Origin: Candidatus Multivoradales bacterium
GTDB lineage: Bacteria > Acidobacteriota > Thermoanaerobaculia > Multivoradales > JAHEKO01
Reading direction: 5' to 3'
Length of the DNA stretch: 64,000 nucleotides
Assembly: GCA_965223755.1 (NCBI GenBank)
Contig: CBDCXF010000002.1
Location: 733,780-797,779, forward strand
Both the position numbers and the translations under genes were made by a program. The notes under the pieces are model-generated. The model made no database searches. It worked only from the letters and a program-made list of their open reading frames with translations, and was not told where the DNA came from. Below are positions 47,623 through 56,056 of this stretch, piece by piece; the first letter of the stretch is position 1, and every line of letters begins with the position of its first letter.

Positions 47623-47712
47623 GGAGGGGTGGCTGAGTGGTCGAAAGCACTGGTCTTGAAAACCAGCGACGGTGCAAGCCGTCCGCGGGTTCGAATCCCG
47701 CCCCCTCCGCCA
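47623..47712 (+). tRNA. tRNA-Ser (anticodon UGA), long variable arm
   Basis: GGAGGGG/CCCCTCC acceptor stem, G discriminator, CCA 47710-47712. Anticodon stem CTGGT/ACCAG with loop CTTGAAA (TGA). T-arm GCGGGTTCGAATCCCGC. 90 nt. Confidence 0.85.
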
Positions 47713-48130
47713 ACTGCCAACAGCAGTTGGCGCTATGGGGCGGGATTCTGGGACATCGCTCGCTACCGCGAGCTCAGGTCGCGAATCCTCTGACTCTCGT
47801 TCAGCGCCGATGCGAGCGGGAGGCATTCTGACAAGCAGTTCGCTCACGCGAACTGGGAACGAATCCCGCTGTTCTTCGCCAGCCCGCCGCCCCAGTTGGC
47901 GCTATGGGGCGGGATTCTGGGACATCGCTCGCTACCGCGAGCTCAGGTCGCCAATCCCCTGACTCTCGTTCAGCGCCGATGCGAGCGGGAGGCATTCTGA
48001 CAAGCAGTTCGCTCACGCGAACTGGGAACGAATCCCGCTGTTCTTCGCCAGCCCGCCACCCCAGTTGGCGCTATGGGGCGGGATTCTGGGGCATCGCTCG
48101 CTACCGCGAGCTCAGGTCACGAATCCCCTA
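47713..48130. repeat. Tandem array (~2.4 copies, period 169 bp) of a two-hairpin structured repeat immediately 3' of tRNA-Ser(UGA)
   Basis: Unit starts 47724, 47893, 48062. Each unit has hairpin 1 GGGATTCTGGGACATCGCTCGCtaccGCGAGCTCAGGTCGCGAATCC and hairpin 2 GGCATTCTGACAAGCAGTTCGCtcacGCGAACTGGGAACGAATCCC. Hairpin 2 is homologous to the repeat at 390-800. Confidence 0.8.
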
Positions 48131-48210
48131 CTCGCTACCATTGACGCTCAGCGACGCGAGCAAGTACAGCTCCAGCAAGTAACTCACTATCGGTCTTCTC
48201 GACTATAGCC

Positions 48211-48239
48211 TTGCAATTACCAATAGATGTTCTAGTATC
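48211..48239 (+). promoter_or_regulatory. Candidate sigma70 promoter of the aro-trp operon (TTGCAA-N17-TAGTAT)
   Basis: -35 TTGCAA 48211-48216, -10 TAGTAT 48234-48239, in the only AT-rich stretch (48130-48250) between the repeat array and the leader ORF. Predicted start ~48246 would make the leader peptide mRNA nearly leaderless. Confidence 0.35.
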
Positions 48240-48248
48240 CTGCTCTCG

Positions 48249-48305
48249 ATGACGATTTTAGCCCTCCTACGCACGACCTCTGGAGCTTGGTGGTGGCCCA
48301 ATTAG
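48249..48305 (+). CDS. trpL: Tryptophan operon leader peptide (18 aa, three consecutive Trp codons)
   Basis: ATG ACG ATT TTA GCC CTC CTA CGC ACG ACC TCT GGA GCT TGG TGG TGG CCC AAT TAG = MTILALLRTTSGAWWWPN*. Followed by alternative hairpins and an intrinsic terminator directly upstream of the DAHP synthase-trpEGDCFBA genes. Confidence 0.6.
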   Translation: MTILALLRTTSGAWWWPN

Positions 48306-48350
48306 GCGGGCCGCTGGCTGTAGTCATCTAAGAAACAAATCAGACCAACC

Positions 48351-48383
48351 GAGCCCGCCGATCCGGCGGGCTTTTTGTTTGTT
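48351..48383 (+). terminator. Attenuator terminator (3:4 hairpin + U-tract) of the trp leader
   Basis: GCCCGCCG-atc-CGGCGGGC followed by TTTTTGTTTGTT. The 3' arm sequence GGCGGGC also occurs at 48305-48311 just after the leader stop, able to pair with the 5' arm (antiterminator 2:3). GGCCC (48295-99) / GGGCC (48308-12) can form a 1:2 pause hairpin. Confidence 0.65.
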
Positions 48384-48429
48384 GGTGCCCGCCTGGGTCC
48401 GGGCTCTTTTGATTCAAAGGAGCTCGATC

Positions 48430-49446
48430 GTGATCATCATTCTCAAACCTGACACCGGCCCGGAGGTGGCCGAGGAACTGATGGCTCGCATTGAAGCCGA
48501 GGGCTGCCGGCCGCTGCACATGCCGGGCAGCGAGCGGGTGGTTCTTGGAGCGCTGGGCGACGAGCGCGTACTCGAGCGGCTGCACCTCGGCAGCCACCCA
48601 GCCGTCGAACAGGTCAAGCGAGTTCTTGCCCCCTATCAGTTGGTCAGCCGTGAAGCCCACCCACAGGATTCGGTGGTCAAGATTGGCGACGTATTGGTGG
48701 GAGGCGGAGCGTTCATGGTCGTTGCCGGCCCCTGTGCGGTCGAGAGTCTCGATCAATTGCAGCGAACCGCCGAAGCGGTGAGTGAAGCCGGGGGCCACGC
48801 CTTGCGCGGGGGCGCGTTCAAACCCCGCACCAGTCCCTACAGTTTTCAAGGCCTTGGCGTCGAGGGCCTCAAGATTCTGCAGCAGGTCTCGTCCGAGACT
48901 TCGCTGCCGACAGTGACCGAAGTGGTCGAAGTCCAGGATGTCGACGATGTCGAGGACCACGCCGATTGCTTCCAAATCGGCACCCGCAATATGCAGAACT
49001 TCCGCCTCCTCAAAGCAGTGGGCAAAAGTTCCAAACCGGTGATCCTCAAGCGCGGCATGGCGGCCAAACTCGACGACCTCTTGTTGGCCGCGGAATACAT
49101 CGTCAGCGAGGGCAATCCCCAGGTGATCCTGTGTGAGCGTGGCATCCGCACCTTCGAAACGGCGATGCGCAACACCCTCGATCTAGCCGCCGTTCCCTAC
49201 CTCAAGCAGCGCACCCACCTGCCCGTATTCGTCGATCCCTCTCACGGTACCGGCCTGCGCGAGCTGGTCTTGCCGACCGCCCTGGGAGCCGCCGCGGTTG
49301 GTGCCGACGGCCTCATCGTCGAGGTCCATCATGATCCCGGCGAAGCGCTATCCGATGGTCGCCAGTCCCTTTATCCAGAACAGTTCAGCGAGCTGATGGA
49401 GGCCCTCATACCTCTGCTCGCCTCTTTGGGTCGGAGGTTGGCGTGA
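48430..49446 (+). CDS. 3-deoxy-D-arabino-heptulosonate-7-phosphate (DAHP) synthase, type I-beta with N-terminal regulatory (ACT/ferredoxin-like) domain
   Basis: GTG 48430 preceded by AAGGAG 8 nt upstream (the longer ORF from 48379 would read through the terminator). Catalytic TIM barrel blocks VVAGPCAVES, GGAFKPRTSPYSFQGLG, KRGMAAK, GLIVEVHHDP. Also related to KDO8P synthases. Confidence 0.85.
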   Translation: MIIILKPDTGPEVAEELMARIEAEGCRPLHMPGSERVVLGALGDERVLERLHLGSHPAVEQVKRVLAPYQLVSREAHPQDSVVKIGDVLVGGGAFMVVAGPCAVESLDQLQRTAEAVSEAGGHALRGGAFKPRTSPYSFQGLGVEGLKILQQVSSETSLPTVTEVVEVQDVDDVEDHADCFQIGTRNMQNFRLLKAVGKSSKPVILKRGMAAKLDDLLLAAEYIVSEGNPQVILCERGIRTFETAMRNTLDLAAVPYLKQRTHLPVFVDPSHGTGLRELVLPTALGAAAVGADGLIVEVHHDPGEALSDGRQSLYPEQFSELMEALIPLLASLGRRLA

Positions 49447-51002
49447 CTGCCCACGAAAACCTGCGGGAACTTGAAATCAATCCCGAACCTTGCGGGCTCT
49501 ATCGGGCTCTCTGCCAAGAGCGCGTCGACACGGCGCTGCTGGAATCGGGAGATGGAACCGAGGGACGGCCGGGACAAAGCTTGCTCCTGGTACGAGCGGC
49601 ACTTCGCATCCAGATTCGCAACCGCACATCGACTGTCTTTCCTTTGACCCCCTACGGCGAGGCGTTGTGCCTGGTGATGGCAGACGACCCCAGATTGAAG
49701 CCGTTTCTCAACCTTCGGTGCAGCGAACGCACGGTCTTCGTTCATCCTGAGCCAGACTCCTATCTTGAGGATCTCGAACGGCTCACTGAACCGGGACCGT
49801 TCGACACCCTGCGCTGTGCCCTCAAGTCTCTCATTTCGATTCCCAACCAGCAGCGACTGCTGGTCGGAGTGTTCAACTTCGAGTTGATCGCCGCCTTCGA
49901 GGACATCCCGGGAATGGATGACGATGACGCGCGCGCCGACTTTCTCCTCGCCCAGCGCTTTGTGCGCATCGACCACCGGGCTGGCAAGACACAGCTCTTC
50001 AATCTCGGCAACGGCAAACCAGATTTTGAGCAACAGGTGCTTGATTTCGCTGGCAGCGAGGTTCCAAGCCAAAGCCATCTCGACCGCAGTCCGCTCACCA
50101 AGGAGGTCGAAGTGGACCTCAGCGACGCCGACTTCTCCAGAGTGGTGCGCCATTGCCGACAAAAGATCCACGAAGGAGAGGTCTTTCAAGTCGTCCCGTC
50201 GCGCAGTTTTCGCGCTCCTTGCCAGGACCCACTCGCCGCTTACCGGCGCTTGCGACAATTGAATCCCAGTCCGTACCAGTTCTTTCTGCGCTCCAAGGAT
50301 GAGGTCCTTTTCGGGGCTTCGCCGGAGACTTGCGTCAAAGTGACCACGGGGGACAAAGGAGCGCGCCTCACTCTGCGCCCGATCGCGGGAACCAGACCGC
50401 GCGGCAGAGATGGCGACGGCAATCTCAACGTGGATTTGGACAATCGGTTGGCCGCCGAACTCGTCCTCGACACCAAAGAGCAAGCCGAGCACATGATGCT
50501 GGTGGACTTGGCGCGCAACGATGTTGCCCGCGTCTGCGTACCAGGAAGCCGGCGCGTCAGCCACTTGCTTTCCCTCGAGCATTACTCCCACGTCTCTCAT
50601 CTGGTCTCGGAGATTGAAGGCCGCCTACGGCCGGACCTCGACGCGTTGCACGCCTACCAAGCCTGCATGAACATGGGCACCCTGACCGGTGCTCCCAAGT
50701 TGCGCGCCACCGAACTCATTGCCGAGTTCGAGGCGACGCCGCGAGGTCCCTATGGCGGCGCCGTCGCCTACCTTCTAGGTGACGGCGGAACGTCGACATC
50801 GCTCGACAGTGCCATTGCCATCCGCAGTGCCCAAGTCCGCGATGGGACAGCTCGCGTACGCGCGGGGGCTGGAGTGGTGCGCGACTCGAATCCAAGTGCC
50901 GAAGCACTGGAGACCCGGCGCAAGGCTGCAGCGGTCCTCATGGCGTTGCGCCCGGAAAGGACCCCAAAGAAGACCCAAGATATAGCAGGAGAGTCACAGT
51001 GA
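49443..51002 (+). CDS. trpE: Anthranilate synthase component I
   Basis: GTG overlapping upstream stop (GTGA). Chorismate-binding C-terminal domain motifs LTGAPK, GPYGGAVAYL, GAGVVRDS. Confidence 0.9.
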   Translation: MTAHENLRELEINPEPCGLYRALCQERVDTALLESGDGTEGRPGQSLLLVRAALRIQIRNRTSTVFPLTPYGEALCLVMADDPRLKPFLNLRCSERTVFVHPEPDSYLEDLERLTEPGPFDTLRCALKSLISIPNQQRLLVGVFNFELIAAFEDIPGMDDDDARADFLLAQRFVRIDHRAGKTQLFNLGNGKPDFEQQVLDFAGSEVPSQSHLDRSPLTKEVEVDLSDADFSRVVRHCRQKIHEGEVFQVVPSRSFRAPCQDPLAAYRRLRQLNPSPYQFFLRSKDEVLFGASPETCVKVTTGDKGARLTLRPIAGTRPRGRDGDGNLNVDLDNRLAAELVLDTKEQAEHMMLVDLARNDVARVCVPGSRRVSHLLSLEHYSHVSHLVSEIEGRLRPDLDALHAYQACMNMGTLTGAPKLRATELIAEFEATPRGPYGGAVAYLLGDGGTSTSLDSAIAIRSAQVRDGTARVRAGAGVVRDSNPSAEALETRRKAAAVLMALRPERTPKKTQDIAGESQ

Positions 51003-51592
51003 AAGACCCGACTCCCATCATCTTGGTCGACAACCGCGACTCGTTTACCTTCAATCTGGTTGACTCTTTCCGGCGCCTCGGCAGCCAGGTCTCGGTGTAC
51101 CGCAACTGCTCGGCGGCACATCACCTCTTTGACCTCGCAAGACACGAAAAGGCATTGGTGGTTTTGTCTCCCGGTCCGGGCCGACCCGAGGACGCGGGCT
51201 GCTGCCTTGAACTCATCGAGTTGGCTTGTGACAGGGCTCCCGTTCTCGGCATTTGTCTCGGCCTTCAGGCAATCGGCCAGGCAAATGGTATTCCGGTGGT
51301 TTCTGCACCGCTGCCGGTGCATGGCGAAGCGTCTTATCTCGACCACGACGGGGAAGGTCTGCTGTCCGATTTGCCGCAAACTATCCGCGTCGGCCGCTAT
51401 CACAGCCTTTGCATTCGTTCTTTGCCTGGATTCCAGATCCATGCGTCGCTGGACGGCATGGTGATGGCGGCGGGCGACTCGAAAAGCGGGCAAATGGGAT
51501 TGCAGTTTCACCCTGAATCCATCCTGACGCCCTACGGCGATGCCATCCTCGCCAACGCCCTCTCCATCAGTCGGAGCTTCTACGATGCGTGA
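50999..51592 (+). CDS. trpG: Anthranilate synthase component II (glutamine amidotransferase)
   Basis: Class-I GATase triad context (GICLGLQAIG, HPES). 197 aa. GTGA overlap with trpE. Confidence 0.9.
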   Translation: MKDPTPIILVDNRDSFTFNLVDSFRRLGSQVSVYRNCSAAHHLFDLARHEKALVVLSPGPGRPEDAGCCLELIELACDRAPVLGICLGLQAIGQANGIPVVSAPLPVHGEASYLDHDGEGLLSDLPQTIRVGRYHSLCIRSLPGFQIHASLDGMVMAAGDSKSGQMGLQFHPESILTPYGDAILANALSISRSFYDA

Positions 51593-52592
51593 AGTCCTCG
51601 ACCTTCTCTGCCAACGAACCGACCTGGATGGCGCCGCTACCGAGACTGTTTTTCGAGAACTGGTAGCGGGAAAGCTGGATCCTCTGTTCGTCGCCGCATT
51701 CCTCGCCGCCCTTCGCTCCAAAGGAGAAACGCCGTCGGAAGTGGCTGGAGCGGCGAAGGCGCTGCTGGACAGCGCCTTGCCGTTTCCACGCCCCGACTAC
51801 CCGTTCGCCGACTTGGTCGGAACCGGCGGTGACGGAGCCGGCACCATCAATCTCTCGACTGCAGCGGCTCTTACGGTGGCCGCGGCCGGTTTGCCGGTCG
51901 CCAAACATGGCAACCGCTCGGTCTCATCCCAATGCGGATCGGCTGATGTCTTGGAAGCATTGGGAGTGCGCATCGACCCCCAACCGGATGTCGCTCGCCG
52001 GGGCCTGGACGAGTGCGGTTTCTGTTTTCTCTTCGCGCCGCAATATCACTCCGGATTGAAGCATGCGATGCCGGTGCGGAAAGCCCTCGGCATTCGTACG
52101 ACGATGAATCTGCTCGGGCCGCTGGTCAATCCAGCACGACCGACTATCTTGCTGGTCGGGGTCTACGATCCCCGCATCCTGCATCTGGTGGGCGCCGCAC
52201 TCTCCGATCTCGACGCGGACATGGCATTGGTCGTCCACGGGAGTGGAATCGACGAAGTGGCGTTGCACGGTTCCACCGATGCCGTTCGCTTGCACGACGG
52301 CCAACTCGAGAGTTTGCACATCGTTCCCGAGGAAGTCGGTCTGCAGCGACACGCTCTTGAGGGTCTGCGCGGTGGCGATGCCGACGCAAACGCGGCGCGA
52401 CTGAGGAGCATTCTTGCCGGGCAAGGGTCGTCCGCCGAAGCTGCCGCGGTAGCGCTCAATGCCGGAGCGTTGCTGTGGATCTCGGGGCACTCCGAGTCTT
52501 TGACCGAAGGAGTGAAGCGAGCTGGCGGTGTCTTGGCCACGGGCAAACCACTTGAGGTGGTCGAGGCCTATGGAGCAATCTCCCATGGCTGA
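51585..52592 (+). CDS. trpD: Anthranilate phosphoribosyltransferase
   Basis: Start at internal ATG (MREVLDLL...) overlapping trpG by 8 nt. GTGGDGAGTINLSTAAA and NLLGPLVNPA signature blocks. Confidence 0.9.
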   Translation: MREVLDLLCQRTDLDGAATETVFRELVAGKLDPLFVAAFLAALRSKGETPSEVAGAAKALLDSALPFPRPDYPFADLVGTGGDGAGTINLSTAAALTVAAAGLPVAKHGNRSVSSQCGSADVLEALGVRIDPQPDVARRGLDECGFCFLFAPQYHSGLKHAMPVRKALGIRTTMNLLGPLVNPARPTILLVGVYDPRILHLVGAALSDLDADMALVVHGSGIDEVALHGSTDAVRLHDGQLESLHIVPEEVGLQRHALEGLRGGDADANAARLRSILAGQGSSAEAAAVALNAGALLWISGHSESLTEGVKRAGGVLATGKPLEVVEAYGAISHG

Positions 52593-54054
52593 GCCCGAAT
52601 CTGGACTCCTGCGCCCATCCGCGGGGAAAGCGTCCGTCCTCGAGGAAATCGTCGCGAGCTGCCGCAAACGGCTCGAGGCACGGATGCACGGTCGATCTTT
52701 GGCGGGGTTGCTTGAGGCGGCGAGCCCGAGCCAACGCGGCCTGACCAAAGCGCTCCAGCGTCCGGGAGCGCGTTTCATCCTTGAAATGAAGCGCCGATCT
52801 CCGTCACGAGGCAATCTGCGACCACTGGCGACCGTCCAGGAGATGAGCGCCGCCTATCGCGGACTTGCCGACGCCGTCAGCGTCCTGACAGAACCGGACT
52901 TTTTCGGCGGATCCTTGACCGACCTCGAACAGATGAGCTCGGCTATCGATATCCCCATCTTGCAAAAGGACTTCATTCTTGACCCCTTCCAGATTGTGGA
53001 CGCACGCCTGCATGGCGCCGACGCCGTCTTGCTGATGCTGTCCGTTGTGAACGACCGCACCGCGCGCGAGTGCTTGGAGATGTGCGAAAAGCTGAGGGTC
53101 GACGCCCTTGTAGAAGTTCACGATGAGGAGGAACTGCAGCGCGCAATTGAACTAGATGTTCCGCTGATCGGCATCAACAACCGAGACTTGCGGACTCTAG
53201 AAGTCGACCCAACCACGACCGAGCGTCTGGCGCCAAGGGTTCCTGACAATCGAATTCTGGTGGCCGAATCGGGGATTGCCAGCGCTAAGGAAGTTGCGCG
53301 TTTGGCTCCGCTGGTTGACGGGTTTCTGGTCGGAAGCTCGCTGATGGTGGACCCGGATCTGCGCGGAGCCGCAGCCGCACTGGTGTCGGGACGAATCAAG
53401 ATCTGTGGTTTGACTCGAGCCGAAGACGCGGTCGCTGCGGCGCGGATCGGTGCTTGGCGTCTGGGGGCCGTATTGGCTCCGGATTCACCTCGACGCACGA
53501 CTCCAGAGGCGGCGCGGCGCATGACCGAGGCCACAGAACTGCCAACCGTCGCGGTGTTCCGATCCCAGGCAGTCGACGAGATCGCTCGTTTGGCCGACGA
53601 AGCCGGCGCGCCTTGCGTTCAAATCCACCAAGACCTTTCCATCGCAGACATCCAAGGATTGCGCGACGCTCTTCCAGGGGTCGAGATCTGGGGCGCGACC
53701 GGCTTCACGCCAAACCGCAAAGTCGAGGCGATTCCCACTCTGCCGGTGGATCGCATGGTCTTGGATGCCGCGGTCAACGGACGCAGTGGCGGCACCGGAC
53801 GTCAGCTCGATTGGGAACGCTTTTCCCACTTGCTCGGATTCGAGAAGACCATCCTTGCCGGAGGGATTCGTCCCGACAATGCCCTTCGTGCACGGAACTA
53901 CGGCGCCTACGCTTTGGATCTGAGTTCCGGAGTCGAGTCGGAGCCGGGGATCAAAGATCACCGCAAACTGGCGGCGTTACAAGATGCCCTGCGCGCCGCC
54001 AGCAGCCCCGACTTTCGACATCGGGCGGCCCCAGATACGGAGACCTCACCATGA
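52585..54054 (+). CDS. trpC: Bifunctional indole-3-glycerol-phosphate synthase / phosphoribosylanthranilate isomerase (TrpC-TrpF fusion)
   Basis: N-half IGPS ([32 protein letters not shown]). C-half PRAI ([26 protein letters not shown]). Alternative start ATG 52570. Confidence 0.9.
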
Positions 54055-55235
54055 CCTTTGCCGCATCGACCCGCTTTGGCGAGTACGGTGGCGCCTTTGT
54101 TCCGCAAATCCTCGTCCCTGCTCTCAGCCAACTTGAACAAGCCTGGCTCGCCGCTCGGGAGGATCGCTCCTTCCAGAGCGAACTCAACGCCCTTCTTGCC
54201 GACTACGCCGGCCGCCCCACCCCCCTGACGCGCTGCAGCAATCTCTCCGGCGAGGGAGTGGACATCTATCTCAAGCGCGAGGACTTGCTGCACGGAGGCG
54301 CCCACAAGACCAACCAAGTGCTGGCGCAAGGACTGCTCACTCGGGCGATGGGCAAGAAGCGGGTGATCGCCGAAACCGGAGCCGGCCAGCACGGCGTCGC
54401 CTGCGCCTTGGTCGGTGCGTTGCTCAACCTCGAGACGGTTGTCTATATGGGCGCCAAAGACATAAAACGCCAGCAGCCCAACGTCTACCGAATGCGCTTG
54501 ATGGGCGCTGAGGTGGTGCCGGTGGACAGTGGCAGCGGCACCCTCAAAGACGCCATCAACGAGGCCTTACGCGATTGGTCGGCGTCCTACGAGTCCAGCC
54601 ACTACCTGCTGGGCACGGCCGCGGGACCGCACCCCTATCCGAGCATGGTCGCCGACTTCCAGAAAATCATCGGCGATGAAGCGCGCGAACAGATCCTCGG
54701 CGCCGCCGGTCGGTTGCCCGATCAGATCATTGCCTGCGTCGGCGGCGGATCCAACGCCATCGGCATCTTTCAAGCCTTCCTCGACGATGAGGTGGAGTTG
54801 ATCGGCGTTGAACCGGGGGGCTCTGGAACCAGGCATGGTGCGACCTTGGGCCGCGGTCGTCCGGGTGTTCTGCATGGTGCGTTCAGTTACCTTCTGCACG
54901 ATCCAGACGGGCAAATATCGGAAAGTCACTCCGTCTCCGCTGGACTCGACTATCCGGGTGTCGGGCCCCAGCACGCCCAACTCAAGGACAGCGGGCGAGC
55001 CCGCTACACCGAAGCAACCGACGACCAGGCTCTTGAGGCGTTCCACCAACTCGCCCGGGGCGAAGGCATTCTTCCGGCGTTCGAGTCCGCGCACGCGTTG
55101 GCCTACGCCTTCCAGGAGGCCGAGCGCCTTCGCGCCGGAGGTGTTGAAGCAACGCTTCTCGTCAACCTCTCCGGGCGCGGCGACAAAGACGTGCCGACAG
55201 CCATGGCATTTACAGCTGAAGGTAGCGAATCATGA
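54051..55235 (+). CDS. trpB: Tryptophan synthase beta chain
   Basis: ATG 54051 overlapping trpC/F stop (ATGA). The ORF-track entry 53454..55235 has a spurious 199-codon N-terminal extension. PLP-lysine region [35 protein letters not shown]. Confidence 0.9.
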
Positions 55236-56056
55236 TTGACCGCTACGCAGAGCTGTTCGCCAGGGCGGCCGCTGAGAAACGAGGCGTCTTCGTGCCGTTT
55301 GTGGTGCTGGGCGACCCAGGCCCTGCAACCTCAGACCGCATCCTCGACGCCTTGGTCGAGGGTGGTGCCGACGCGCTGGAACTCGGCATCCCCCACTCCG
55401 ACCCGATCGCCGACGGACCGGTAATCCAAAGAGCGGGGCGGCGATCGCTCAATGCCGGAACGACCGTGGGCTCCTGCCTGGATCAATTGGCCCGCTTTCG
55501 ACAGCGACACAACGACATCCCGGTTGGCGTCCTCACCTACGCCAACCTTGCCATCGCCCGGGGCGTTGATCGCTTCTATGGCGATCTAGCAGAAGCAGGT
55601 GTCGATTCGGCTCTCCTGGCCGACGTTCCCGTCGAGGAGGCAGAGCCCTTCGTCACCGCTGCAAGGACGACGGGCATCCATCCCATCTTGATCGCGCCGC
55701 CCAACGCCGATGACGCCACGCTCAAGTCGGTGGCAGATCTTTCCGGTGGCTACACCTACTGCGTCGCCCGTCCGGGCGTCACCGGCAAGCGAGAAGAGCT
55801 TGGCGAAGATGCGTTTGGACTGTTTTCAAGACTTCGTCAGTTGGGCGCTCCGCCCACGCTCCTCGGTTTCGGCATCAGCGCACCCGAGCACGTCCGTAGG
55901 GCCATCGCGGCAGGTGCCGCCGGGGCCATTTCGGGCTCGGCCGTAGTCGCGCGAATCGAAGATCGCCTCAAACAAGGCGAAGATCCGTTCGCCGCGGTCA
56001 AGGAATGCGTTCTATCGATGCGCTCCGCCGGAGGGACGCCAACCGGTGCTCAATGA
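55232..56056 (+). CDS. trpA: Tryptophan synthase alpha chain
   Basis: 274 aa TIM barrel. [17 protein letters not shown] and GFGIS motifs. ATGA overlap with trpB. Confidence 0.9.

What the first reader, a model, noticed from the sequence alone, without database searches (positions are those of the whole stretch)
48211..48430. Classical Trp-codon attenuator (leader peptide MTILALLRTTSGAWWWPN) controlling a DAHP-synthase-trpEGD(CF)BA supraoperon
An 18-codon ORF with three consecutive TGG codons ends 44 nt before a perfect GC hairpin plus U-tract (48351-48383). The 3'-arm sequence GGCGGGC recurs immediately after the leader stop (48305-48311), so an antiterminator (2:3) can compete with the terminator (3:4). 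A GGCCC/GGGCC 1:2 hairpin overlaps the Trp codons. A near-consensus TTGCAA-N17-TAGTAT promoter would start transcription only ~3 nt before the leader ATG, making it leaderless. The first regulated gene is a type I-beta DAHP synthase, so the common aromatic pathway entry step would be co-attenuated by tryptophan.
Basis: partly seen in the sequence, partly recalled or inferred. Interest (0 to 1): 0.55.

Follow-up and report, generated by a model that had tools for sequence, protein, structure and literature searches.

The report
Tryptophan attenuator ahead of DAHP-synthase–trp operon
This is a classic ribosome-sensing "attenuator" switch that shuts off a seven-gene tryptophan-synthesis operon (led by the first enzyme of aromatic amino-acid synthesis) when tryptophan is plentiful; it is a well-understood kind of switch, here found in an uncultured bacterium and conserved in several other bacterial groups.

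Summary
An 18-codon ORF (48249-48305, MTILALLRTTSGAWWWPN*) with three consecutive Trp codons is followed by a strong intrinsic terminator (48351-48373 plus U-tract). It sits in front of seven overlapping genes: DAHP synthase I-beta, trpE, trpG, trpD, trpC-F, trpB, trpA.

Folding with a ribosome footprint reproduces the textbook logic:
- Free RNA forms 1:2 plus the terminator.
- A ribosome stalled at the Trp codons frees GGCGGGC (48305-48311), giving a -23 kcal/mol antiterminator.
- A ribosome at the stop codon masks that segment.

The same leader, terminator and operon head recur in every trp-linked orthologous locus I could inspect, about 18 loci. These include Gemmatimonadales, Polarisedimenticolia, Polyangiaceae and Sphingomonadales, among them cultured Sphingomonas ginkgonis. 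DAHP-synthase genes not linked to trp genes lack it.

In 16 of 17 leaders a -35/-10 pair ends 6-10 nt before the leader ATG and there is no Shine-Dalgarno sequence, which supports leaderless translation.

Rfam Trp_leader matches below threshold (31.4 vs 41 bits).

Verdict: a new member of a known kind; nothing has been tested experimentally. Leaderless Trp leaders and attenuated DAHP synthases are already described.

The parts
48211..48238 (+). Promoter-like pair: -35 TTGCAA (48211-16), 16-nt spacer, -10 TAGTAT (48233-38). The -10 ends 10 nt before the leader ATG.
   Evidence: Sequence read. The match is 8/12, so one search did not flag it. An equivalent -35/-10 pair lies 6-10 nt before the ATG in 16 of 17 related leaders (P = 0.014 for the window; Fisher p about 1e-13 over 11 lineages).
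48249..48305 (+). Leader ORF (trpL-like), MTILALLRTTSGAWWWPN*. It has no Shine-Dalgarno sequence and is presumed leaderless or to have a 5'UTR of 4 nt or less.
   Evidence: Homologous Trp-run leaders occur in relatives.
48288..48296 (+). Three consecutive Trp codons, the sensing site.
48292..48299 (+). Segment 1 (GGUGGCCC), which pairs with 48308-48315 to form the 1:2 hairpin.
   Evidence: -14.8 kcal/mol. 87.5% of cells are paired in 5 clade members.
48305..48320 (+). Segment 2, the 5' strand of the antiterminator (GGCGGGCCGCUGGCUG). It starts at the last base of the stop codon.
   Evidence: pairs with 48341-48359 at -23.0 kcal/mol when the ribosome is masked at W1/W2; p = 0.006 against shuffles.
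48341..48360 (+). Segment 3, shared by the antiterminator (with segment 2) and the terminator (with segment 4).
48364..48383 (+). Segment 4, the terminator 3' arm (48364-48373), and the U-tract UUUUUGUUUGUU.
48387..48404 (+). Second, weaker hairpin (GCCCG...CGGGC, -7.6 kcal/mol) followed by UCUUUUGAUU. It holds a third copy of GCCCGCC that can pair with segment 4 or segment 2. Its role is unclear.
48400..48424 (+). Hairpin that sequesters the DAHP-synthase Shine-Dalgarno sequence AAGGAG (48416-21).
   Evidence: -11.1 kcal/mol; P(unpaired SD) = 0.003. Analogous hairpins occur in L081, L082, L173 and L083.
48430..49446 (+). DAHP synthase type I-beta with an N-terminal FXD regulatory domain. First structural gene, GTG start.
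   Evidence: NF006421, 459 bits. (Pfam PF18152 + PF00793; P0001 is 100% identical).
49443..51002 (+). trpE, anthranilate synthase component I.
   Evidence: NF010079, 523 bits against a cut-off of 471. 4-nt overlap with the DAHP synthase gene.
50999..51592 (+). trpG.
51585..52592 (+). trpD.
52585..54054 (+). Fused trpC-trpF.
   Evidence: NF006945, 463 bits against a cut-off of 380.
54051..55235 (+). trpB.
55232..56056 (+). trpA.

Best explanation
This is a ribosome-mediated (leader-peptide) transcription attenuator of the E. coli trpL type.

Proposed mechanism:
- Transcription starts at, or a few bases before, the leader AUG. The leader ORF is therefore translated without a Shine-Dalgarno sequence.
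- When charged tRNA-Trp is plentiful, the ribosome runs to the UAG at 48303-48305. There it covers segment 2 (GGCGGGC, 48305-48311...), so segments 3 and 4 form the terminator and RNA polymerase stops at the U-tract near 48383. This would release a leader RNA of about 135 nt.
- When tRNA-Trp is scarce, the ribosome stalls with Trp codon 1 or 2 in the A site. Its 3' edge then lies near 48300-48304. Segment 1 is covered and segment 2 is free.
- Segment 2 pairs with segment 3 (48305-20 with 48341-59) before segment 4 is made. The terminator cannot form, and transcription continues into DAHP synthase-trpE-G-D-CF-B-A.
- Tryptophan would thus co-regulate the entry step of the common aromatic pathway and its own branch.

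Shown in silico or by comparison: all sequence elements, the mutually exclusive pairings and their energies, their conservation, and their strict association with trp-linked DAHP synthase genes.

Inferred: the transcription start site, translation of the leader, and Trp-dependent termination in vivo.
For: Anatomy:
- The sequence elements are all present.
- Free RNA folds as 1:2 plus terminator.
- Masking up to W1/W2+12 nt gives a 15-bp antiterminator at -23.0 kcal/mol, against -19.6 for the terminator. It remains the minimum-free-energy structure even when segment 4 is present.
- Masking up to stop+12 nt restores the terminator.

Statistics:
- The 2:3 duplex beats dinucleotide shuffles in the window (p = 0.006) and in 7 further sequences of the Acidobacteria/Gemmatimonadota-like group (p = 0.002-0.048).

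Conservation:
- Among 167 DAHP-synthase loci, Trp-run leaders occur where trpE-trpG follow and not at unlinked genes.
- L003, first scored as an exception, turned out to have the leader ...RQFWWLWRRPAGHRSG* plus a terminator.
- The same logic was seen in 12 relatives folded individually.
- Additional lineages carry it: L168 Gemmatimonadales, L169 Polarisedimenticolia, L171, L173, and cultured Sphingomonas ginkgonis, L174.

Three-way co-variation of segments 2, 3 and 4 across lineages:
- L168: GGUGGGC / GCCCACC / GGUGGG.
- L012: GGCA-GC / GCCUGCC / GGCAGGC.
- L171 and L169: lineage-specific stem extensions are mirrored in both partners.
- In the covariance-model-guided alignment of 16 leaders, 81.8% of pairs are canonical against 71.8 +/- 2.8% in shuffles (1 of 1000 shuffles reached this). 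Several pairs show 3-4 pair types.

Other support:
- Rfam Trp_leader RF00513 aligns over its full length at 31.4 bits, local E = 5e-5.
- Promoter placement supports a leaderless start.
- Leaderless Trp leaders are documented in S. meliloti (PMC7298713) and D. deserti (PMC4007540). A WWW leader and an attenuated aroF are documented in C. glutamicum (PMC4046766).
Against: - There are no experimental data: no TSS mapping, no terminated transcript, no Trp response.
- Within the window's own clade of 5 sequences the core pairs are invariant, so there is no covariation there.
- In the sphingomonad group the simple 2:3 duplex test is not significant (p = 0.13-0.87), and a cognate versus non-cognate test did not discriminate.
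- The promoter match is only 8/12 and was not flagged by the scan.
- A -10 element ending 10 nt before the ATG would normally give a 5'UTR of about 3-4 nt rather than a true 5'-AUG.
- The Rfam score is below the gathering threshold.
- The DAHP-synthase Shine-Dalgarno sequence is sequestered in all predicted states, so read-through alone may not suffice for expression.
Confidence: 0.87

Rival explanations
1. The main control is translational, or is Rho/coupling-based, rather than intrinsic-terminator attenuation. In this reading, ribosome behaviour on the leaderless Trp ORF remodels downstream RNA. It would act through the GCCCGCC copy at 48387-93 and the Shine-Dalgarno-sequestering hairpin at 48400-24 to open or close the DAHP-synthase ribosome-binding site. 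This resembles the leaderless poly-Cys ORFs of mycobacteria.
For: - A stable Shine-Dalgarno-sequestering hairpin is predicted in the window and in the four other clade members.
- A third GCCCGCC copy can pair with segment 4 or segment 2.
- Leaderless short ORFs acting as attenuators of operonic expression are described in bioRxiv 10.1101/834739.
Against: - The Shine-Dalgarno sequence stays paired (P unpaired = 0.003) in both the stalled and unstalled equilibrium folds, so no switch is evident.
- Lineages outside the window clade (L168, L169, L171) lack these downstream elements yet keep the leader and terminator.
- The terminator is canonical and strong.
Confidence: 0.06
2. The hairpin is merely a constitutive terminator or insulator, closing transcription from the upstream tRNA-Ser and repeat region or acting bidirectionally. 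The WWW ORF would then be a chance, untranslated ORF, and the operon would have its own promoter downstream or be read through constitutively.
For: - TGGTGGTGG alone is not statistically rare.
- The hairpin also scores as terminator-like on the minus strand, and an A-tract (48331-40) mirrors the U-tract.
- The promoter match is weak.
Against: - Leader, Trp run and terminator are conserved next to different upstream neighbours: rpsT, a kinase, enolase, a tRNA.
- The ensemble is tied to trp-linked DAHP synthase genes only.
- Only 46 nt separate the U-tract from the gene, and that stretch holds structured RNA and no promoter.
- Segments 2, 3 and 4 co-vary.
Confidence: 0.03
3. Termination is controlled by a trans-acting factor, either a TRAP-like protein or uncharged tRNA (T-box), rather than by a translating ribosome.
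For: Both systems control trp genes in Firmicutes. This rests on established knowledge of those systems, not on any result here.
Against: - There are no (G/U)AG repeat arrays and no T-box sequence.
- There is no T-box or other Rfam hit. The only leader-family hit is Trp_leader.
- A conserved in-frame Trp run in a short ORF is unexplained by these models.
Confidence: 0.01

Closest known systems
E. coli / enterobacterial trpL attenuator (Rfam RF00513 Trp_leader)
   Same: - Short leader ORF with tandem Trp codons.
- 1:2, 2:3 and 3:4 alternative hairpins.
- Stop codon abutting segment 2.
- Terminator core AGCCCGC...GCGGGCUUUUU nearly identical to the model consensus, with a full-length model alignment.
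- Downstream trpE of the 'proteo' type and a fused trpC-F.
   Different: - The score of 31.4 bits is below the 41-bit gathering threshold.
- Three Trp codons rather than two.
- No Shine-Dalgarno sequence; probably leaderless.
- The first regulated gene is a DAHP synthase.
- trpG and trpD are separate genes.
- No evidence of a TrpR operator.
Sinorhizobium meliloti trpL-trpE(G) attenuator (rnTrpL / peTrpL)
   Same: A leaderless leader ORF: the 5' end of the RNA is the ATG (PMC7298713). It has a Trp-codon leader and an intrinsic terminator and is constitutively transcribed (PMC6614838). Sphingomonad relatives of the window's element are also Alphaproteobacteria.
   Different: It controls trpE(G) only and has no DAHP synthase. 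Trans-acting sRNA and peptide functions are shown there and are untested here.
Corynebacterium glutamicum trp leader (WWW) and aroF leader (F-Y-F)
   Same: Three consecutive Trp codons upstream of trpE, and a separate leader-peptide attenuator on the DAHP synthase gene aroF (PMC4046766). In the same organism the ilvBNC leader peptide is formed without a ribosome-binding site (cited in PMC4046766).
   Different: There the DAHP synthase and the trp operon are separate units with different regulatory codons. Here one Trp-specific leader governs both.
Deinococcus deserti trpEGD leader
   Same: A putative Trp leader peptide translated from an essentially leaderless transcript, with the TSS at -1 (PMC4007540).
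   Different: A different operon content, with no DAHP synthase. It is only a prediction there too.
trp operons that contain an AroA-I-beta DAHP synthase (e.g. Simkania negevensis)
   Same: An operonic DAHP synthase presumed dedicated to supplying the Trp branch (PMC3937554). aroG/aroH adjacent to trpA has also been seen in marine metagenomes (PMC2395257).
   Different: In those cases the DAHP synthase is the last gene and control is by TrpR. Here it is the first gene and sits behind an attenuator.

Membership tests
Leader-peptide (ribosome-mediated) trp transcription attenuator | Short upstream ORF with tandem codons for the regulatory amino acid | tested here: met
   18-codon ORF with WWW at 48288-96. 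Homologous Trp-run leaders in about 18 related loci.
Leader-peptide (ribosome-mediated) trp transcription attenuator | Intrinsic terminator between the leader ORF and the first structural gene | tested here: met
   10-bp stem, 8 G-C pairs, U-tract; -19.6 kcal/mol. 98% of cells paired in the clade.
Leader-peptide (ribosome-mediated) trp transcription attenuator | Antiterminator mutually exclusive with the terminator. Its 5' strand is free when the ribosome stalls at the regulatory codons and covered when the ribosome reaches the stop codon. | tested here: met
   Footprint-constrained folds. Segment 2 starts +17 nt from W1 and overlaps the stop codon. p = 0.006 against shuffles. This is in silico only.
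Leader-peptide (ribosome-mediated) trp transcription attenuator | 1:2 (anti-antiterminator or pause) hairpin overlapping the regulatory codons | tested here: met
   48292-99 with 48308-15, -14.8 kcal/mol. 87.5% of cells paired in the clade.
Leader-peptide (ribosome-mediated) trp transcription attenuator | Covariation supporting the alternative helices | tested here: inconclusive
   None within the 5-sequence clade, where the cores are invariant. Across clades there are three-way compensatory changes, and 81.8% of pairs are canonical against 71.8% in shuffles on a model-fitted alignment, which leans towards the structure.
Leader-peptide (ribosome-mediated) trp transcription attenuator | The leader ORF is actually translated (start signal present) | tested here: inconclusive
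   No Shine-Dalgarno sequence. A leaderless start is inferred from the -35/-10 pair ending 6-10 nt before the ATG in 16 of 17 leaders. The TSS is not mapped.
Leader-peptide (ribosome-mediated) trp transcription attenuator | Trp-dependent premature termination in vivo or in vitro | not testable with these tools
   Requires Term-seq, Northern blots or reporter assays.
Rfam RF00513 Trp_leader | Covariance-model score at or above the curated gathering threshold (41 bits) | tested here: not met
   31.4 bits, full-length alignment, local E = 5e-5. No hit at the gathering threshold in the window or in 11 relatives' loci.
T-box leader | T-box covariance-model hit or conserved T-box sequence | tested here: not met
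   No Rfam hit. No T-box motif.
TRAP-regulated trp leader | Array of (G/U)AG repeats spaced by 2-3 nt overlapping the antiterminator | tested here: not met
   No such runs of repeats in 48201-48440.

The most novel reading that the evidence does not exclude
The element may be more than a simple on/off attenuator in two ways.

(a) The constitutively made, leaderless terminated RNA of about 135 nt, and/or its WWW peptide, could act in trans, as rnTrpL and peTrpL do in Sinorhizobium.

(b) The third GCCCGCC copy (48387-93) and the conserved Shine-Dalgarno-sequestering hairpin (48400-24) could form a second, translational checkpoint. DAHP synthase, and through translational coupling the whole operon, would then need a further signal besides Trp-tRNA scarcity.
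Probability: 0.12. Interest if true: 0.55.

Novelty: new member of a known kind. Interest (0 to 1): 0.3.

Why it matters
The finding shows that textbook Trp attenuation, best known from Proteobacteria and Actinobacteria, also heads a conserved seven-gene operon (DAHP synthase followed by the trp genes). This operon occurs in poorly studied lineages: Acidobacteriota-like MAGs, Gemmatimonadales, Polarisedimenticolia and Polyangiaceae. A shorter form occurs in Sphingomonadales.

The arrangement puts the committed step of the whole aromatic pathway under Trp-specific control. That raises a physiological question: how are Phe and Tyr supplied when Trp is abundant? Possible answers are another isozyme, or allosteric control through the FXD domain.

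There are two practical points:
- These leaders fall below the Rfam threshold and are missed by standard annotation.
- Sphingomonas ginkgonis offers a cultured organism in which to test the element.

The apparently universal leaderless start of the leader ORF adds to evidence that leaderless uORFs are a common way to build attenuators.

Tried and rejected
- Exact look-up of the window's DAHP synthase found nothing, either with the GTG start translated as V or via P0001. I worked from homologues instead.
- Genome and metagenome scans returned nothing closer than 67-68% identity. Closer relatives (75-84%) came from the protein search plus contig look-ups.
- The MAFFT alignment of 8 leaders (A1) mis-registered segment 2 for L168 and L169, so I did not use it for pair counts.
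- Pair counts on the 5-sequence clade gave no covariation.
- The cognate versus non-cognate duplex matrix did not discriminate, because G+C-rich cores differ in intrinsic strength. I rejected it as a test.
- RNAalifold on the post-terminator region was confounded by alignment register.
- A chain model (1:2, 3:4, 5:6 off; 2:3, 4:5 on) was considered. Equilibrium folds instead give 2:5 pairing and a Shine-Dalgarno sequence that is always closed, so I kept it only as speculation.
- TRAP and T-box motifs were sought and are absent.
- The taxonomy of the window could not be fixed. DnaE2's best named hits are only 65-68% identical: Acidobacteriota, Zixibacteria, Polarisedimenticolaceae, Chromatiales.
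- Key reviews (Xie 2003, Xie 2004, Merino 2008) are not held in the library. I therefore could not check whether a DAHP-synthase-first attenuated trp operon was already tabulated there.
Full report
**What is there**

- An ATG at 48249 opens an 18-codon ORF, MTILALLRTTSGAWWWPN, that ends at TAG 48303-48305. Three consecutive TGG codons lie at 48288-48296.
- Forty-five bases further on lies GAGCCCGCCG-AUC-CGGCGGGCUU (48351-48373), followed by UUUGUUUGUU. The scan tool calls this a terminator: 10 pairs, 8 of them G-C, with a 3-nt loop. It folds at about -19.6 kcal/mol.
- The heptamer GGCGGGC of the 3' arm (48365-71) also occurs at 48305-11, beginning with the last base of the stop codon.

The downstream genes are as claimed:
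- A type I-beta DAHP synthase with the N-terminal FXD domain at 48430-49446. It scores 459 bits on NF006421 against a cut-off of 335, and its Pfam domains are listed.
- Then trpE, trpG, trpD, a fused trpC-F, trpB and trpA.
- Every junction overlaps by 4-8 nt, so this is a translationally coupled seven-gene operon.

- The -35/-10 spacer is 16 nt, not 17.
- TTGCAA/TAGTAT matches the consensus at 8 of 12 positions. That is below the scan's threshold, so no promoter was reported.

**Does it behave like an attenuator in silico?**

- The free leader folds better than dinucleotide shuffles (z = -2.8). Its structure is a 1:2 hairpin (48292-99 with 48308-15, -14.8 kcal/mol) plus the terminator.
- I then masked the RNA a ribosome would cover. 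With Trp codon 1 or 2 in the A site (mask to 48299-48302), the minimum-energy structure becomes a 15-pair antiterminator, 48305-20 with 48341-59. Its energy is -23.0 kcal/mol, and it stays the minimum-energy structure even when segment 4 is available.
- With the ribosome at the stop codon (mask to 48314), the terminator returns.
- Segment 2 starts 17 nt after the first Trp codon and overlaps the stop codon. This geometry is close to that of E. coli trpL, a comparison made from established knowledge rather than a test here.
- The 2:3 complementarity exceeds shuffles (p = 0.006).

**Comparative evidence**

The window's own genome is an uncultured organism. P0001 and P0137 both sit on a 1.64-Mb contig. 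DnaE2's best named relatives are only 65-68% identical and come from Acidobacteriota, Zixibacteria and Polarisedimenticolaceae. The phylum therefore remains uncertain.

Relatives were retrieved through the DAHP synthase protein.
- The closest are L081 (84%), L082 and L173 (81%) and L083-87 (75%). They have the same seven-gene operon and leaders such as MTTASIQLAISGSWWWPSNAGRWLS*, all followed by GGCGGGC and the same terminator.
- More distant lineages with the same operon also have Trp-run leaders:
  - L168, Gemmatimonadales: ...SWWAWRG...
  - L169, Polarisedimenticolia: ...SWWAWRG...
  - L171: ...NGWWWWCS...
- Among 167 loci from genome and metagenome scans, Trp-run leaders appear where trpE-trpG follow the DAHP synthase gene and not at unlinked DAHP synthase genes.
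- The one apparent exception, Polyangiaceae L003, was picked up by my covariance model. It turned out to have ...RQFWWLWRRPAGHRSG* plus a terminator.
- Cultured Sphingomonas ginkgonis has MTVRTALVASFRWWWRPPAEEACAAIV* plus a terminator before DAHP synthase-trpE-trpG.
- Individually folded relatives show the same stalled and unstalled switch.

**Structure support**

- Inside the window's clade the helix cores never vary, so pair counts show conservation but no covariation. The terminator has 98% of cells paired, the antiterminator core 91%, and 1:2 87.5%.
- Across clades, segment 2 tracks segment 4, as expected if both pair with segment 3:
  - L168 has GGUGGGC / GCCCACC / GGUGGG.
  - L012 has a U in segment 3 matched by an A in both partners.
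  - L171 and L169 have lineage-specific stem extensions mirrored in both partners.
- A model-guided alignment of 16 leaders gives 81.8% canonical pairs against 71.8 +/- 2.8% after shuffling partners (1 of 1000 shuffles reached this). Several distal pairs show 3-4 pair types. This alignment is fitted to the structure and so leans towards it.
- For the sphingomonad group, the simple duplex test is not significant. The antiterminator is less well defined there.

**Leaderless start**

There is no Shine-Dalgarno sequence before the leader ATG. In 16 of 17 leaders, a TTGnnn hexamer, a 16-18 nt spacer and a -10-like hexamer (often TAGnnT) end 6-10 nt before the ATG.
- The window's P against random placements in the same locus is 0.014.
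- Fisher's combined p is about 1e-13 over 11 lineage representatives, which are not fully independent.
- L012 is the exception. It has GAGGAG 8 nt before a GTG start.

Leaderless Trp leaders are already documented in S. meliloti (PMC7298713) and predicted in D. deserti (PMC4007540).

**Comparison with what is known**

- Rfam's Trp_leader model aligns over its whole length (48286-48379), with a near-identical terminator core. It scores 31.4 bits against a gathering threshold of 41.
- Neither the window nor 11 relatives' loci reach that threshold. The element works like trpL but is not a curated member of RF00513.
- T-box and TRAP features are absent.
- Leader-peptide control of DAHP synthase genes is known for C. 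glutamicum aroF, with Phe-Tyr-Phe codons (PMC4046766), and for Acholeplasma aroF (PMC8632094).
- DAHP synthase genes inside trp operons are known in Simkania, as the last gene under TrpR control (PMC3937554), and in marine contigs (PMC2395257).
- I found no description of a Trp-codon leader governing a DAHP-synthase-first trp operon in the searchable library. The main trp-operon reviews are not held.

**Open points**

- The DAHP-synthase Shine-Dalgarno sequence (48416-21) is buried in a -11 kcal/mol hairpin in every predicted state. Equivalent hairpins with different sequences occur in the four other clade members.
- A third GCCCGCC copy (48387-93) can pair with segment 4 or segment 2.
- Whether these add a translational layer is unknown. 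Lineages outside the clade lack them.

**Verdict**

This is a classical Trp leader-peptide attenuator. It is a new member of a known kind, of modest interest, and untested experimentally.

Noticed in passing
window 48400-48424: The Shine-Dalgarno sequence AAGGAG of the DAHP synthase gene is locked in a predicted 10-12 bp hairpin (-11.1 kcal/mol; P(unpaired) 0.003 in all states). Relatives L081, L082, L173 and L083 have equivalent Shine-Dalgarno-sequestering hairpins with different sequences (CUCCUU/AAGGAG; GUUCCUCC/GGAGGAAC). This may be a second, translational control layer, but its function is unknown.
   Followed up: partly
window 48387-48404: A third copy of GCCCGCC lies just after the terminator. 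It forms a weak hairpin with CGGGC (-7.6 kcal/mol) followed by UCUUUUGAUU, which the scan flagged as terminator-like. It can alternatively pair with segment 4 or segment 2. It is present in 4 of 5 members of the window clade only.
   Followed up: partly
window 47705-48129 (and tRNA-Ser 47623-47712): A 169-nt unit is repeated about 2.5 times in tandem (87-93% identity), starting inside the 3' end of tRNA-Ser(UGA). Each unit carries a T-arm-like GGGAACGAATCCCGC. These look like reiterated tRNA 3'-end remnants, possibly integration scars, directly upstream of the trp promoter.
   Followed up: partly
L081 7833-7928 (relative, 84% DAHP synthase identity): A degenerate second copy of the attenuator scores 49 bits on my model. 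Its leader is reduced to MNEWRSARRAVGYRS* with a single Trp codon. It has its own terminator and a duplicated promoter-like stretch, and it sits upstream of an FGE-sulfatase-domain gene located just before the true trp leader. This suggests a local duplication or insertion in the leader region.
   Followed up: partly
window 48303-48323: The window's leader has an earlier stop (TAG 48303) than its relatives. Beyond it the ancestral frame still reads AGRWL* to TAG 48321-23, matching ...AGRWLS* in L081. The stop was therefore moved up against segment 2, an E. coli-like geometry.
   Followed up: yes
window 48331-48340 with 48374-48384: An A-rich tract (AAGAAACAAA) upstream of the terminator is complementary to the U-tract and extends the helix in free folds. 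The same hairpin scores as terminator-like on the minus strand, so it could act bidirectionally. A similar A-tract occurs in L082.
   Followed up: no
L012 231-317; 17 leaders overall: The -10-like hexamers in front of the leaders are unusually often TAGnnT or TAGnnn. One sphingomonad leader (L012) breaks the leaderless pattern: it has a GAGGAG Shine-Dalgarno sequence 8 nt before a GTG start.
   Followed up: partly
L168 7742-7814: In the Gemmatimonadales relative a tRNA gene lies immediately upstream of the trp leader promoter, as tRNA-Ser does about 540 nt upstream in the window. The association may be coincidental.
   Followed up: no
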